From NCBI RefSeq assembly GCF_003334785.1, contig NZ_QOWV01000005.1: a DNA stretch of 64,000 nucleotides; one strand, written 5' to 3'. Made by a program: the position numbers. Each line of letters begins with the position of its first letter. Positions within the stretch are counted from its first letter, which is position 1. The stretch is from Escherichia coli (lineage in GTDB: Bacteria > Pseudomonadota > Gammaproteobacteria > Enterobacterales > Enterobacteriaceae). Positions 27,001-33,000 of this stretch are shown here, one piece after another.

Positions 27001-30000
27001 GAAATTGCCGTTATCCAGTCGGCAATGTGCGGCGCAGCCAATCGTTGAAATATCCATTGCGTCGCGCATGGCATATTTAAAATGCGCGCTGCCCGCGTGT
27101 TCTTTCGGCTGTGGCGGAAAATGAAAGGCGACGAGGATTTCGTCATGCTCAAGAGACACTTTGCCCGGCCCGGTGTGAAAGCCATTAATCGGGACGAAAC
27201 GAACACCGCGCGGGGAGTGGATCTCCAGTTTCGCGTCATAAATTAGCGTTGGCGTGGCAGAATCTGCGCTGGTGGCACCGTTGCAAATATTTCCACCGTA
27301 GGTAGCGACGTTACGGATCTGCGGTCCAGCAATGGACGTGGCCGCAGCACATAACGCCGGGAGATGACGTTGAGTTATAGGATCTTCTATTAGCTGGGTA
27401 AATGTCGTTGCAGAGCCGATACGTAGCGAGCCATCTTCCGCCAGCGTAATTCCCCGCAGCTCCGCCAGATTATGAATATCAACAATATGGCGATAACGGT
27501 CATTGTGATGGTGGAGCTGAATCAGTACGTCAGTGCCACCGGCGAGCAGTTTGGCCTGCGGGTTGTCAGCCAGCAGGTTGATGGCATCGGCAAGGGTTGC
27601 TGCGCGATGGTAAGAAGCAAAATCAAACATGATGTTATCCTCAAATCAATCCTGCCAGATGGAACTCTTCATATAACCGTTTTGGCGTCAGCGGCAGTGT
27701 ATTGATTGCAACACCGGTAGCCATCTTCACCGCGTTACGAATAGCAGCGGCAACAGGAATTATTGGTGGCTCACCCAGTGACTTATGTCCGTATGCGGAT
27801 TGCGGCTCATTGATTTCGACGAACGCGCTTTCCAGTTGTGGCAGATCCGGCATGGTCGGCATTTTGTAATCCAGCAGATTGGGGTTACGGACCACGCCGC
27901 TTTTAGCATCGATGATCATCTCTTCAAATAGCGCCCAGCCAATGCCCATTCCCATTCCGCCGTGTACCTGACCTTCTGCCAGCAGTGGATTAAGAATATG
28001 CCCTGAATCATGAACGTTGAGGATGCGGTTGATGGTGACTTTGCACAGCGCAATATCGACCGTCAGATCAACAAAGGTACAGCCAAACGCCGGTGGGTTA
28101 GTGGTGGTTTTGATGGAGCTTTCAGCAGAGAGCTGCCCGCCGCGTTCAGGGTGGTAGAAAGCGTCCATCGCCAAATCTTTTAACGACATTAACGGCTCTT
28201 CCGGTCGTTCAACCAGCACGATATGGCCTTTTATCAGGGTCAGATTCATCGCTGACTGATGTAGCATGACTGCGGCGTGAGCGATGATTTTCTCTTTTAA
28301 TAATAGTGCCGCACTGCGCAGCGCAGGCGCGGCAACATAGCTCTGGCGTGAGGCAAATGCGCCGGGATCGAACGGCGTAACGTCGGTATCTTGAGTTGAA
28401 ATAACGCGAACGTCGCTGACCGGAACCCCCACGGTTTCTGCCACCATTTGCGAGAAGACGGTGTCGGCACCCTGACCGATTTCCGTCGCGCCGCTTTGCA
28501 CGTTGATGGTTCCATCCTGATTCATCAGAAGGCGCGCGCCTGCTATTTCTACGCCGACAGGCCAGGTGTTAGAGGTGTAGCTAAAACAGGCGACGCCAAC
28601 GCCGCGGCGCAAATTGCCTTGCTGGTTCTGGCATTCTGCACGGCGTTTTTCCCATTCAAAGATTTTCCGGCCTTTTTCAAGACACTCCGGCAACCCTGCG
28701 CTGTAAATACGTTTGCCCGTGAGCGGATTAGCATCTCCTTCGCGGGCGGCGTTGCGTAAACGAATTTCAACAGGATCAATACCTAACGCTGTCGCGGCGT
28801 CATCAAGCATAGACTCAACGGCAAATACGACTTGTGGCGCGCCATAACCACGCATCGCACCAGCCGAGGGGAGGTTGGTATAGCAGGTCTTTGAACTGTA
28901 AGCGTAGGCACAACGAGGATAAAGGTAAGCGACTTTATTCCCCCCCGCAGAAGCGATGGAGTGCCCGTGAGATGCATAAGCGCCGGTGTTAGACAGAACA
29001 TCCAGACTATAACCTTTCAATGTTCCGTCGCGGTTCACGCCCATTTGCCCGTCAATGGTAAAAGCGTGGCGGGTACGGGTTGCGAGGAAACACTCTTCAC
29101 GGCTAAGGGAAACTTTCACCGGAATGCCGCCAAGCTTGCTGGTCAGGAATGCCGCCATTGGCTCTTCCAGTACATCCTGTTTATTACCAAAACCGCCACC
29201 GACAAATGGTTTGATGACTCGTACGCATGACCAGGGAATATCCAGCGCCTGACCAACCACGCGGCGAACAATGTGCGGGATCTGGGTGCTGGAAACGATG
29301 GTAATTCGCGAGTCATCCTCCATCCACGCCAGCGATGTTACGCTTTCCATGTGACAATGTTGAATAACGGGGGTCTGATAGTGCCCCTGTACCTGGTAGT
29401 CGGCGGCATCGATTGTTTGTTGGACATTACCCGTCGACATCGTGCTTTGTTTCAGTAAATTGCCACCGTTATGGATTGGTGCAGCGTCTTCTGCCAGCGC
29501 CGCTTCTGGCGTGGTGATAACGGGTAATTCTTGCCACTCAATGCTGACCAATTGCGCCGCTTTTTCTGCCGTGAGTTCATCGCGGGCCACGACGATGGCA
29601 ACGGCGTCACCATGATGACGAACATGGCGAGTTAGCAGTGCGCGATCGGCGGTATCGCGCTTGTTTTCGTCAAGTGTCCAGGCATGCCCAGCTGTAGCGA
29701 ATGGAATATCAGGCACATCTTCCCAGGTAAAAATCGCCAGTACGCCCGGCAAACTTCTGGCTTGTTCATCATTAATACTTACGGCATAACCATGTGCGAT
29801 AGGGCTACGTACATATTTCGCATAACACATGCCCGCCATAACATAATCGTCAGTATATCGTGCCCGCCCGGTGACCTTAGCAATGGCATCGACGCGCATG
29901 CATGATTCACCCGTAGCGGTTGCTTCCCGCGCTTCCATAGAAATCCCCTCGATTTGAACATTTGGTTCTTATGGCAAAGATTTAGTCTAAGCAGGCAAGA

Positions 30001-33000
30001 TTTACGCCAGAAACGACGATAAGCGTTAGGGGAGGTAGGAAGTGTGATGACGTTAAAAAAACACAGATATGATACGAAACAGGACTCTGAATAGGGGCAG
30101 TGATACGTATCAATATGAGTGGCGATAAAATCAATGTGATAAATTGGGATTATTACGCATCAGGATGGGAAATAGGGTAAAAAGTCAGGAAGTTCGATAC
30201 CTCTACAGCGAATATTTTGCTGATGATACTTCCCTTTGCCAAATGAAATTAACCTCTTTCTCTATTACCACGTTTTTCCAGAAGCAAGAGATTGGGTATC
30301 AAGAGGCTGGCTGCTATGATAAGGCGTCTTGTTTTTTAAGCGAGGAAAGATTTTGAGTGCGGGACGCCTGAATAAAAAATCTCTGGGTATCGTGATGTTG
30401 TTATCGGTTGGACTGCTTTTGGCGGGCTGTTCGGGTAGCAAATCATCCGATACAGGAACGTATTCCGGCTCCGTTTACACCGTGAAACGGGGGGATACGC
30501 TATATCGTATTTCGCGCACCACGGGAACCAGCGTAAAAGAACTGGCGCGACTGAACGGCATTTCCCCCCCTTACACCATTGAAGTTGGTCAGAAACTAAA
30601 ACTGGGTGGGGCGAAAAGTAGCAGTATTACACGTAAATCAACCGCCAAATCAACGACCAAAACCGCATCGGTTACACCGTCATCAGCGGTACCGAAATCA
30701 TCCTGGCCGCCAGTAGGGCAACGTTGTTGGTTATGGCCAACGACAGGGAAAGTTATCATGCCGTATTCGACAGCAGATGGCGGCAATAAAGGGATTGATA
30801 TCTCAGCTCCACGGGGTACACCTATTTACGCCGCGGGTGCAGGAAAGGTGGTGTATGTGGGCAACCAGCTGCGTGGCTACGGTAATCTCATCATGATTAA
30901 ACACAGTGAAGATTACATTACGGCTTACGCCCATAATGACACGATGCTGGTAAATAATGGGCAAAGCGTGAAGGCTGGGCAAAAAATCGCCACTATGGGG
31001 AGCACGGATGCGGCATCTGTTCGCCTGCATTTCCAGATTCGTTACCGTGCAACGGCAATTGATCCGCTACGTTACTTGCCGCCTCAGGGCAGCAAGCCAA
31101 AATGCTGATGGCGAATTAATCAGCAGTCAGCAGCGTGGCACTTGCTAAGGAGAGCGTAAGGTTTATAATGCCTTACGCATCTCGAAGCGGGCGTAGTTCA
31201 ATGGTAGAACGAGAGCTTCCCAAGCTCTATACGAGGGTTCGATTCCCTTCGCCCGCTCCAATTTATCTTCGCCGTAATACTTCCCCATTTTGTTGTAAAT
31301 AAAAAGCGTTTACGCAATGCAATCCTTTTGTAACAACCCAGGTAAAACACCTTATTTTCAAGTTGTTAAATAAGTGGTTATCTACGCTTTTAACAAACGA
31401 TTGATGGAATATTTTATGAAAGGGAAATCTGCATTAACTCTTCTGCTCGCTGGTATATTTTCGTGCGGCACATGCCAGGCGACAGGGGCAGAAGTGACGA
31501 GTGAATCTGTATTTAACATTCTTAATTCCACGGGGGCAGCAACAGATAAAAGTTATTTATCGTTAAATCCAGATAAGTATCCTAATTATCGTCTTCTGAT
31601 TCACTCAGCCAAATTACAAAATGAAATAAAGAGCCACTATACCAAAGACGAAATTCAAGGATTGCTAACATTAACAGAAAACACACGAAAGTTAACGTTG
31701 ACGGAGAAACCCTGGGGAACGTTTATTCTTGCTTCTACTTTCGAAGATGACAAAACAGCGGCAGAAACCCACTATGATGCTGTCTGGTTGAGGGATAGTT
31801 TATGGGGCTATATGGCATTAGTATCAGATCAGGGAAATAGTGTAGCCGCAAAAAAGGTTCTGCTCACCCTGTGGGATTATATGTCTACGCCCGACCAGAT
31901 TAAGCGGATGCAGGACGTCATTAGCAACCCAAAACGACTGGATGGAATTCCCGTGCAAATGAATGCTGTGCATATCCGATTTGACAGCAACTCCCCCGTG
32001 ATGGCAGATGTGCAGGAAGAAGGCAAGCCGCAGCTGTGGAACCATAAACAAAATGATGCTTTAGGTCTTTACCTTGATCTCCTTATACAAGCAATCAACA
32101 CTGGTACTATTAACGCTGAAGATTGGCAAAAAGGTGACCGATTAAAGTCGGTTGCGCTGCTGATTGCTTATCTGGATAAAGCCAATTTCTATGTTATGGA
32201 AGATTCCTGAGCATGGGAAGAAGATGCCCGATTAAACACATCTTCCGTTGCACTGGTGACCTCTGGACTGGAACGTTTGTCAAACCTACTCTCGAAGAAA
32301 GACTCTGTTTTTGTCTCTGATTTACTACGCGAAGCTAAAGTCAATGAACTGGATGAAACTCTTTCAACAACGAGGTTGAACCACCTCATAGATAAAGGTT
32401 ATGAAAGAATAACGTTACAGCTTGATTTAGGGGGAGAATCCCCAGGTTATCTGGAAAAAGATAAACATTACAGAGAAGCCGATGCGGCTTTACTTAATGT
32501 TATTTATCCTACAAATCTTTCAAAGATAAACACCAGAAGAAAAGAGCAAGTTCTAAAAATAGTTAAAAAACTAGCAGGTCCGTATGGTATAAAAAGATAC
32601 GAGAAGGATAATTATCAGTCGGCAAATTTTTGGTTCAATGATATTAAAACCGATACCGATCAAAATTCGCATGCAAAAAGAGAAAAGAGCTTCATTCCAT
32701 CAACAGAAGCAGAATGGTTTTTTGACTCATGGTATGCAAAATCAGCAGCAATTGTTTATAAAGAATCAAGAAAAGAAGAGTATTTGAATGACTCAGTACA
32801 ATTTATGAATAGATCATTGGCCCAAATAACAGGCGAGAATATGATTGGTGCAAATGGCAGGAGCGTACCAGAAATGGCACTTCCCGAAAGCTATAACTAT
32901 ATCCACAAGTCGGGAACTTTGCATGAAGCGCCAAGCCCTATCATTCCGCTAAATTGGTCGAAAGCTTCAATGACTCTCATGTTGAAAGAGATGTCCAACC

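What the first reader, a model, noticed from the sequence alone, without database searches (positions are those of the whole stretch)
29939..30115. Sigma-54-type -24/-12 element and spaced TGATACG repeats upstream of xdhA
On the xdhA coding strand the sequence CTGGCGTAAATCTTGCC places GG and GC at the canonical sigma-54 spacing, 45-85 nt upstream of the two candidate xdhA starts. Further upstream are a 12-bp perfect palindrome TGATACGTATCA (about 30101-30112) and a second TGATACG copy about 32 bp away (about 30069-30076). That geometry suits an enhancer bound by YgeV, encoded 3.5 kb away.
Basis: inference. Interest (0 to 1): 0.5.

Follow-up and report, generated by a model that had tools for sequence, protein, structure and literature searches.

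The report
Known sigma-54 promoter of xdhA, enhancer redefined

Summary
The window is E. coli chromosome, and the region is the xdhA–actS(ygeR) intergenic spacer.

**Sigma-54 element.** CTGGCGTAAATCTTGCC (30010..29994, minus strand) is present with the correct spacing. The same 17-mer is a published sigma-54 ChIP-seq site, listed as experimentally confirmed in EcoCyc. It is invariant in 16 orthologous loci apart from the spacer bases. This part is correct but already known.

**TGATACG repeats.** They are present, but the 7-mer is no more frequent than chance. Both the palindrome and the second copy are missing from other E. coli strains, other Escherichia and other genera.

**What is conserved instead:**
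- Two dyads, TATCAcatTGA (30131-30141, -152) and cTCAtatTGATA (30108-30119, -131).
- A CRP-like block at -67.

**Support for the dyads as the enhancer.** The dyad motif recurs upstream of the ygeW, ygfK and ygfT sigma-54 promoters. It also matches the published UAS motif of the clostridial enhancer-binding protein DioR, which controls the homologous gene cluster.

**Best reading.** YgeV binds the two dyads and activates the known sigma-54 promoter, probably with CRP-assisted bending. YgeV binding is inferred, not shown. Interest is low to moderate.

The parts
29994..30010 (-). Sigma-54 -24/-12 promoter element of xdhA, CTGGCGTAAATCTTGCC (GG 30008-30007, GC 29996-29995)
   Evidence: The identical 17-mer is a ChIP-seq site in PMC4591121 Table 1 row OS29. 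CTGGCGTA-N4-TTGCC is conserved in all 16 orthologous loci.
29983..29983 (-). Predicted transcription start (19 nt downstream of the motif centre, 30002)
   Evidence: Rule taken from PMC4591121. It reproduces their distance of 84 nt to the K-12 start codon at 29899. No start has been mapped here.
29936..29950 (-). Shine-Dalgarno GAGGGGA (29950..29944) and the conserved ATG (29938..29936), the probable true xdhA start
   Evidence: Alignment A1: AGGGGA and ATGGA are conserved in 10 species. The K-12-style ATG at 29899 reads CTG in Trabulsiella. PGAP also uses the long ORF.
30043..30058 (-). Conserved CRP-like block TTTTA-ACGTCA-TCACA centred at -67.5; an IHF site is not excluded
   Evidence: 11 of 16 positions are invariant. 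It sits at -67 or -68 in all 17 sequences. It matches 8 of 10 core positions of TGTGA-N6-TCACA. CRP-like sites lie in phase at ygeW (-77.5), ygfK (-97.5) and the promoter inside yqeC (-78.5).
30108..30119 (-). Dyad B of the upstream activating sequence, CTCATATTGATA (TCA-N3-TGATA), centre -131
   Evidence: 8 of 11 core positions are invariant, and it sits at -130 to -132 in all 17 sequences. The exact 12-mer occurs only twice in the window; the other copy is in the ygeW upstream region. TCTCATATTGATA also lies upstream of ygfT.
30131..30141 (-). Dyad A of the upstream activating sequence, TATCACATTGA, centre -152, 21 bp from dyad B
   Evidence: 9 of 11 positions are invariant, and it sits at -150 to -153 in all 17 sequences. 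It ranks 7th in the window with a weight matrix built only from clostridial DioR sites.
30101..30112 (.).
30070..30076 (+).
   Evidence: No invariant positions and mean identity 0.40. No homologous copy at this position (-93) in the other 16 sequences.
24458..26236 (+). ygeV, the candidate activator: weak GAF-like region, PAS, sigma-54 AAA+ domain, Fis-type HTH
   Evidence: Pfam scan: Sigma54_activat 2e-70, HTH_8 3e-13, PAS_8 1.5e-6. No receiver domain was found.
24073..24089 (-). ygeW sigma-54 promoter CTGGCACACTTATTGTT, in the same proposed regulon
   Evidence: PMC4591121 row OS30; conserved in 27 loci.
24263..24302 (-). ygeW upstream dyads TATCAATATGA (24292-24302) and TATCAAACTGA (24263-24273)
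   Evidence: This is the top hit of the clostridial DioR matrix, at 24287-24305.
14437..14453 (-). ygfK sigma-54 promoter GTGGTGCGATTGTTGCT
   Evidence: PMC4591121 row OS31; conserved in 12 loci.
14622..14634 (.). ygfK upstream perfect dyad TATCATAATGATA
   Evidence: It is the second-best DioR-matrix hit. It is identical to the core of the C. botulinum site ATTTATCATAATGATAAGG upstream of CBO2885.

Best explanation
The region is the control module of the xdhABC operon (xanthine dehydrogenase) of E. coli. RNA polymerase carrying sigma-54 sits as a closed complex on CTGGCGTAAATCTTGCC. This is shown by published ChIP-seq.

Open-complex formation needs an enhancer-binding ATPase. The most likely one is YgeV, encoded 3.7 kb away. 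I infer that it binds two dyad-symmetric sites, TATCAcatTGA at -152 and cTCAtatTGATA at -131. They are 21 bp apart, which puts them on the same face of the helix.

A conserved block at -67 (TTTTA-N6-TCACA) lies between the enhancer and the promoter. I infer that it binds CRP, or possibly IHF, and bends the DNA so that the YgeV oligomer can reach the polymerase. This would also place xdhABC under catabolite control.

The same dyad motif lies upstream of the sigma-54 promoters of ygeW, ygfK and ygfT. The purine/urate cluster would therefore form one YgeV regulon.
For: - **Promoter.** The identical 17-mer has a sigma-54 ChIP-seq peak and EcoCyc 'confirmed' status. It is invariant in 16 orthologous loci, with changes only in spacer bases.
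- **Activator.** YgeV has Sigma54_activat, AAA_lid and HTH_8 domains plus a PAS/GAF-like sensor. xdhABC belongs to the published YgeV iModulon, and ygfT expression falls in a ygeV mutant.
- **Dyad conservation.** In all 17 xdhA upstream sequences the two dyads sit at -150 to -153 and -130 to -132, and the CRP-like block at -67 or -68. They carry 8-9 of 11 invariant positions, against none in 41 positions of the adjacent spacer.
- **Dyads go with xdhA, not actS.** They are conserved in Yokenella and Trabulsiella, where no actS homologue was found in the locus.
- **Motif enrichment.** TATCA-N3-TGA occurs 13 times in the window against 2.46 expected, and no shuffle out of 100 reached 13. Seven of the hits lie in the three upstream regions.
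- **Shared 12-mer.** The exact 12-mer CTCATATTGATA occurs only at the xdhA and ygeW upstream regions, and again upstream of ygfT.
- **Independent support.** Clostridial DioR regulates the homologous genes (dpaL, ygeW-ygfK-ssnA-ygeY, yqeB, hyp-xdhABC). Its published sites are ATTTATCA-N3-TGATAAAT or AATTCTCA-N3-TGAGAATT. A matrix built only from those sites ranks the ygeW and ygfK upstream regions 1st and 2nd in the window, and xdhA dyad A 7th.
- **A distant homologue.** A protein with 35% identity in the sensor domain lies in a syntenic cluster that also carries the dyad upstream of its ygfK-like gene.
- **CRP.** A native Crp site in the ygeV-ygeW spacer and glucose repression of urate degradation have been reported. 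CRP-like sites lie in phase at the other promoters.
Against: - No experiment shows YgeV binding to these dyads, nor ygeV-dependence of xdhA itself.
- With the clostridial matrix, single-site scores are not exceptional. The mean maximum score in random sequences is 13.9, and dyad B is not among the top 25 hits.
- Dyad arrangement differs between promoters: inverted and 21 bp apart at xdhA, direct and 29 bp apart at ygeW. The exact recognition unit is therefore uncertain.
- The -67 block lacks both G's in its left half (TTTTA against TGTGA), so the CRP assignment is tentative.
- Homology between YgeV and DioR was not tested directly. Only the shared target genes and the shared motif were compared.
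Confidence: 0.7

Rival explanations
1. One reading: the palindrome TGATACGTATCA and the second TGATACG copy 32 bp away are the YgeV enhancer.
For: The repeats exist and lie at -93 to -129, a plausible enhancer distance. One arm of the palindrome is conserved.
Against: TGATACG is not enriched in the window: 6 copies against 7.0 expected. Positions 30101-30107 and 30070-30076 have no invariant positions, and their identity equals that of the neutral spacer. The palindrome plus second copy occur in none of the 16 other loci; two other E. coli strains have no copy at all. TGATACG is not shared with the ygeW, ygfK or ygfT upstream regions.
Confidence: 0.05
2. The conserved dyads are operator or promoter elements of the divergent actS (ygeR) gene and are unrelated to xdhA or YgeV.
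For: They lie in a shared intergenic spacer, about 190-240 bp upstream of actS.
Against: The dyads keep a fixed distance to the xdhA -24/-12 element in all 17 sequences. They persist in Yokenella and Trabulsiella, where no actS homologue was found in the locus. The same motif lies upstream of three other sigma-54 promoters that have no actS nearby. A natural IS1 insertion at 30195-30203 separates actS from the dyads while leaving them attached to xdhA.
Confidence: 0.03
3. The dyads are real regulatory sites shared by the purine cluster, but they bind a different transcription factor, and YgeV binds other DNA that was not recognised here.
For: No binding data exist. The sites are AT-rich and short. 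A half-site centre-to-centre distance of about 8 bp is short for a Fis-type HTH dimer. PurR-like and CRP-like sites show that other factors act in these regions.
Against: Every promoter carrying the motif is a sigma-54 promoter and needs an enhancer-binding protein. YgeV is the only such protein encoded in the cluster. The same motif was derived independently for the enhancer-binding protein of the homologous clostridial cluster.
Confidence: 0.15
4. The conserved block at -67 is an IHF site, the usual architectural element of sigma-54 promoters, rather than a CRP site.
For: The position between enhancer and promoter fits. A T-tract followed by CATCA resembles the A/T tract plus WATCAR layout of IHF sites (comparison from general knowledge).
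Against: The 3' TTR of the IHF consensus is absent at the required spacing. TCACA is invariant and sits in the same phase as good CRP sites at ygeW, ygfK and yqeC. CRP control of the cluster has been reported.
Confidence: 0.25

Closest known systems
xdhAp, the sigma-54 promoter of xdhABC in E. coli K-12 (EcoCyc; Bonocora et al. 2015, PLoS Genet, site OS29)
   Same: It is the identical 17-mer CTGGCGTAAATCTTGCC in the same position relative to xdhA. It is the same object.
   Different: Nothing differs. The window is simply in the opposite orientation to K-12 coordinates.
DioR regulon of Clostridiales (Nie et al. 2019, BMC Genomics): a sigma-54 enhancer-binding protein with UAS motif ATTTATCA-N3-TGATAAAT
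   Same: The target genes are the same (dpaL, ygeW, ygfK, ssnA, ygeY, yqeB/yqeC, xdhABC) and all use sigma-54 promoters. The dyad core TATCA/TCTCA-N3-TGATA/TGAGA is the same. Sites occur in pairs 15-21 bp apart, 130-390 bp upstream.
   Different: The host is an enterobacterium. The flanks are less AT-rich and one arm is often degenerate. CRP-like sites are present. Orthology between YgeV and DioR was not tested at the protein level here. The DioR motif is itself a computational prediction.
Classical enhancer-dependent sigma-54 promoters with an architectural protein (for example glnHp2 or nifH with NtrC/NifA plus IHF)
   Same: A -24/-12 element, tandem dyad activator sites beyond -100 on the same helical face, and an intervening conserved site suited to DNA bending.
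   Different: The intervening site looks more like CRP than IHF. The activator has a PAS/GAF-like sensor and no receiver domain.

Membership tests
Sigma-54 (-24/-12) promoter | GG and GC doublets exactly 10 bp apart within TGGCAC-N5-TTGC-like sequence, oriented towards the gene | tested here: met
   TGGCGTAAATCTTGC lies at 29995-30009 on the xdhA strand. Its published PSSM score is 10.9.
Sigma-54 (-24/-12) promoter | Purifying selection on the -24 and -12 boxes but not on the spacer | tested here: met
   CTGGCGTA and TTGCC are invariant in 16 loci, while the four spacer bases vary.
Sigma-54 (-24/-12) promoter | Occupancy by sigma-54 holoenzyme in vivo | not testable with these tools
   Published ChIP-seq peak at K-12 position 2998270, fold above threshold 11, EcoCyc status 'C' (PMC4591121).
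Sigma-54 (-24/-12) promoter | Transcription depends on rpoN and on an enhancer-binding ATPase | not testable with these tools
   Only indirect evidence: membership of the YgeV iModulon.
Enhancer (UAS) of a bacterial enhancer-binding protein, YgeV/DioR type | Dyad-symmetric sites about 80-250 bp upstream of the -24/-12 element, with helical phasing | tested here: met
   The dyads lie at -152 and -131, 21 bp apart.
Enhancer (UAS) of a bacterial enhancer-binding protein, YgeV/DioR type | The same motif upstream of the other promoters of the regulon | tested here: met
   Found at ygeW, ygfK and ygfT. Enrichment is 13 hits against 2.46 expected.
Enhancer (UAS) of a bacterial enhancer-binding protein, YgeV/DioR type | Cross-species conservation of the sites | tested here: met
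Met for the dyads.
Enhancer (UAS) of a bacterial enhancer-binding protein, YgeV/DioR type | A cognate activator with a sigma-54 AAA+ domain and an HTH, encoded nearby | tested here: met
   YgeV Pfam scan.
Enhancer (UAS) of a bacterial enhancer-binding protein, YgeV/DioR type | Direct binding of the activator to the sites | not testable with these tools
   No published YgeV footprint, ChIP or SELEX was found.
CRP binding site | TGTGA-N6-TCACA core | tested here: inconclusive
   TTTTA-ACGTCA-TCACA matches 8 of 10 positions, with both G's of the left half missing. It is conserved and in phase with better sites at ygeW, ygfK and yqeC.

The most novel reading that the evidence does not exclude
The whole regulatory module would be conserved between Clostridia and Enterobacteriaceae: an enhancer-binding protein with a purine or urate sensor, its TTATCA-N3-TGATAA operator code, and sigma-54 promoters. 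On this reading the module moved together with the selenium-dependent purine/urate degradation cluster. In enterobacteria, CRP sites at fixed helical phase (-67.5, -77.5, -97.5) would have taken over the architectural role usually played by IHF. That would give a testable operator code for YgeV, an E. coli regulator of medical interest (gut urate clearance) whose binding sites were not described in the papers searched here.
Probability: 0.5. Interest if true: 0.45.

Novelty: new member of a known kind. Interest (0 to 1): 0.3.

Why it matters
xdhABC and the neighbouring ygeW-ygfK cluster carry out anaerobic purine and urate degradation in gut E. coli. This pathway is currently being engineered into probiotics against gout (PMC12507026).

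The promoter itself is textbook and already catalogued. The modest added value is a concrete, conserved candidate operator for YgeV (TATCA-N3-TGA dyads) and a candidate CRP element. These tell an experimenter which bases to mutate. They could also explain the glucose repression of the pathway.

Tried and rejected
- **Pattern counts.** Counts for TGGC-N7-TTGC and TGATACG were uninformative, close to chance.
- **Sigma-70 scan.** A scan of the spacer gave one weak hit, no more than in shuffled sequence, so there is no competing sigma-70 promoter for xdhA.
- **L041.** This Eubacteriales metagenome-assembled genome carries a 21-24% identical homologue. It is GC-rich and has neither the dyad nor a sigma-54 motif, so I dropped it as an unrelated paralogue.
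- **Single-site significance.** Single-site scores from the clostridial matrix are not significant against Markov-random sequence. Only the positions of the top hits are informative.
- **Literature.** Searches for a published YgeV binding site or a CRP site at xdhA found none. The mBio 2022 IsrR paper gives no DNA target.
- **IHF.** The IHF consensus was compared by eye with the -67 block. The fit is poor but IHF is not excluded.
- **ygfT promoter.** It lies outside the window and was fetched from a RefSeq genome instead.

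
Full report
**Where we are.** The 1.1 kb around the finding matches 5412 of 5426 complete E. coli genomes. The ORFs and a RefSeq annotation give this layout:
- xdhA on the minus strand (27641-29938), followed by xdhB and xdhC.
- ygeV on the plus strand (24458-26236).
- ygeW-dpaL-ygeY-hyuA-arcC on the minus strand, below 23982.
- actS (ygeR) on the plus strand, from about 30329.

The finding therefore lies in the xdhA-actS intergenic spacer and should be read on the minus strand.

**Checking the observation.**
- CTGGCGTAAATCTTGCC at 30010..29994 on the minus strand.
- TGATACG at 30070-30076 and at 30101-30107.
- The reverse-strand copy at 30106-30112, which makes the 12-bp palindrome.

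Simple counts do not set these apart from chance. TGGC-N7-TTGC occurs 5 times against 3.7 expected, and TGATACG 6 times against 7.0 expected. The decision had to come from conservation and from outside data.

**The sigma-54 element is real and already known.** Bonocora et al. 2015 (PMC4591121) list exactly this 17-mer as intergenic site OS29. It has a sigma-54 ChIP-seq peak upstream of xdhA, PSSM score 10.9, and the flag 'C' for experimentally confirmed in EcoCyc. Lamoureux et al. 2023 also cite sigma-54 promoters upstream of xdhABC and ygeWXY.

I fetched 40 loci carrying YgeV orthologues. xdhA lies next to ygeV in 16 of them with its upstream region held: Escherichia, Citrobacter, Klebsiella indica, Atlantibacter, Yokenella and Trabulsiella. 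All 16 carry CTGGCGTA-N4-TTGCC at the same place, and only the four spacer bases vary. This is the expected signature of a functional -24/-12 promoter.

**The TGATACG repeats are not the conserved feature.** The evidence comes from a 10-species alignment (A1) and from per-position scores:
- The half of the palindrome outside dyad B (30101-30107) has no invariant position and mean identity 0.43.
- The second copy (30070-30076) has no invariant position and mean identity 0.40.
- The surrounding spacer (30060-30100) scores 0.36, so the repeats are no better conserved than neutral sequence.
- Across all 17 xdhA upstream sequences, the palindrome and the second copy together occur only in the window sequence. 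Four other loci keep one or more TGATACG/CGTATCA copies, mostly the copy that overlaps dyad B. Two other E. coli strains (E69 and SCPM-O-B-8794), E. whittamii and most of the other loci have none.

**What is conserved instead.** Four blocks stand out:
1. The -24/-12 element.
2. TTTTA-ACGTCA-TCACA at 30058..30043, centred at -67.5, with 11 of 16 positions invariant.
3. cTCAtatTGATA at 30119..30108, centre -131.
4. TATCAcatTGA at 30141..30131, centre -152.

Blocks 3 and 4 are TCA-N3-TGA dyads, each extended by TA on its outer side. Together they form a larger inverted arrangement with centres 21 bp apart. Their distance to the predicted start is constant to within 3 bp in all 17 sequences.

**The dyads go with xdhA, not with actS.** In Yokenella and Trabulsiella no actS homologue was found in the locus, and different sequence flanks the xdhA upstream region, yet the dyads are kept. 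In some E. coli strains an IS1 element sits at 30195-30203. This lies between actS and the dyads and leaves the whole module attached to xdhA.

**The same motif marks the other sigma-54 promoters of the cluster.** I located the published sigma-54 sites of ygeW (24073-24089) and ygfK (14437-14453) in the window. I fetched the ygfT promoter from a RefSeq genome.

- Footprinting of the ygeV-ygeW spacer in 27 loci shows three conserved features:
  - an invariant -24/-12 element;
  - a CRP-like TGTGA-N6-CCACA;
  - an upstream block ATCACAtTTtcATATCAATATGAgAAT ... TTTATCAAtTTGa.
- Footprinting of ygfK in 12 loci shows:
  - an invariant -24/-12 element;
  - a perfect TGTGA-N6-TCACA;
  - the dyad ATTATCAtnnTGATA.
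- The exact 12-mer CTCATATTGATA occurs only twice in 64 kb, at xdhA dyad B and in the ygeW upstream region.
- TCTCATATTGATA lies about 200 bp upstream of the ygfT promoter.
- TATCA-N3-TGA occurs 13 times in the window against 2.46 expected, and no shuffle out of 100 reached that number. Seven of the hits fall in the three upstream regions.

**Independent support from Clostridia.** Nie et al. 2019 (PMC6615313) reconstructed sigma-54 regulons in Clostridiales by comparative genomics. Their enhancer-binding protein DioR controls dpaL-pyrC-argE, ygeW-ygfK-ssnA-ygeY, yqeB, pbuX and hyp-xdhABC.

Their supplementary table lists two kinds of site. One is ATTTATCA-N3-TGATAAAT-type, in C. botulinum, C. 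tetani and C. sporogenes. The other is AATTCTCA-N3-TGAGAATT-type, in C. difficile. The sites are often paired, 15-20 bp apart. The E. coli ygfK site TTATCATAATGATAAGG is identical to the core of the C. botulinum site upstream of ygeW-ygfK.

I built a weight matrix from 17 of these clostridial sites only and scanned the window with it. The ygeW upstream region ranks first, the ygfK upstream region second, and xdhA dyad A seventh. Single-site scores are not significant on their own against random sequence, and dyad B is not in the top 25.

I also found a distant homologue of the YgeV sensor domain with 35% identity. It lies in a syntenic cluster with the same dyad and a sigma-54-like element upstream of its ygfK-like gene.

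**Who binds.** YgeV has a weak GAF-like region, a PAS domain, a sigma-54 AAA+ domain with its lid, and a Fis-type HTH. It has no receiver domain. It is the only enhancer-binding protein encoded in the cluster. The published YgeV iModulon contains xdhABC, ygeWXY, ygfK, ssnA, ygfM, xdhD, ygfT and uacT. ygfT expression is reported to fall in a ygeV mutant. That YgeV binds the dyads is therefore a well-supported inference, but no binding experiment was found.

**The -67 block.** It matches 8 of 10 core positions of the CRP consensus, with a perfect TCACA arm. Better CRP-like sites lie at -77.5 (ygeW), -97.5 (ygfK) and -78.5 (the published sigma-54 promoter inside yqeC). A second 8-of-10 match sits at -67.5 of ygfK (read). 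All of these are within about 1 bp of whole helical turns from one another.

A 2025 paper mentions a native Crp site in the ygeV-ygeW spacer and shows glucose repression of urate degradation. CRP is my preferred assignment, as a bending co-activator that adds catabolite control. IHF is not excluded.

**Comparison with what is known, and novelty.**
- The promoter is the known xdhAp.
- The enhancer architecture is the classical one for sigma-54 promoters.
- The dyad motif equals the predicted DioR motif of Clostridiales.
- What I could not find in the searchable literature is any statement of the YgeV operator in E. coli, or of the conserved -67 element at xdhA.

I therefore file the finding as a known promoter plus a new member of a known kind of enhancer.

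**Verdict.** Interest is low to moderate (0.3): the main element is already catalogued, and the refinement is useful but unsurprising.

Noticed in passing
window 24180-24195: A PurR-operator-like box, AGCCAAACGTTTTCGT (13 of 16 matches to ACGCAAACGTTTGCGT as I recall the consensus), lies between the ygeW upstream dyads and its CRP site. It is conserved in Escherichia, Citrobacter, Atlantibacter and Trabulsiella but not in Klebsiella or Kluyvera. A weaker match lies at 14663-14678, upstream of ygfK.
   Followed up: partly
window 16009-16027 (with 15768-15784 and 15709-15724): The third-best hit of the clostridial DioR matrix, TTTTCTCAATGTGAGAATG, lies inside the 3' end of yqeC. It is about 240 bp downstream of the published sigma-54 promoter inside yqeC that drives yqeB. 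A CRP-like TGTGACGTAATTCTCA sits at -78.5 of that promoter.
   Followed up: partly
window 22446-22458: A perfect dyad, TATCAAGATGATA, lies inside the 5' part of dpaL (ygeX). It could be an internal YgeV site or a chance match.
   Followed up: no
window 29899 and 29938: The xdhA start codon is in question. The upstream ATG (29938) and its GAGGGGA Shine-Dalgarno are conserved in 10 species, and the 13 extra codons are conserved as coding sequence. The K-12-style ATG (29899) reads CTG in Trabulsiella. The 765-aa form is probably correct.
   Followed up: partly
window 30195-30203: IS1 is inserted here, with a 9-bp target duplication, in at least three complete E. coli genomes (for example DETEC-P61). 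It separates actS from the xdhA control module and leaves that module intact.
   Followed up: yes
L001 (E. coli 300709), xdhA and ygfK: PGAP flags both xdhA and ygfK as pseudogenes with an 'internal stop' in this strain, although the window ORFs are intact. This could be a real strain difference or an annotation artefact.
   Followed up: no
window 24458-26236 (YgeV): YgeV has no receiver domain; it has a GAF-like region and a PAS sensor. The published description of it as an 'orphan response regulator' (IsrR, mBio 2022) does not fit its domain make-up.
   Followed up: partly
window about 31300-55000: An AT-rich island encoding type III secretion genes (ETT2-like by annotation of the matching RefSeq locus) lies beside a tRNA-Gly next to actS. 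It produces many spurious AT-rich motif hits in matrix scans.
   Followed up: no
L043 12131-12143 and about 12379-12395: A metagenomic contig with a syntenic purine cluster carries a YgeV-like protein (35% identity in the sensor domain). It has the dyad TTATCAGATTGATAG and a sigma-54-like TTGGTCTGATTCATGCA upstream of its ygfK-like gene. The organism was not identified.
   Followed up: partly
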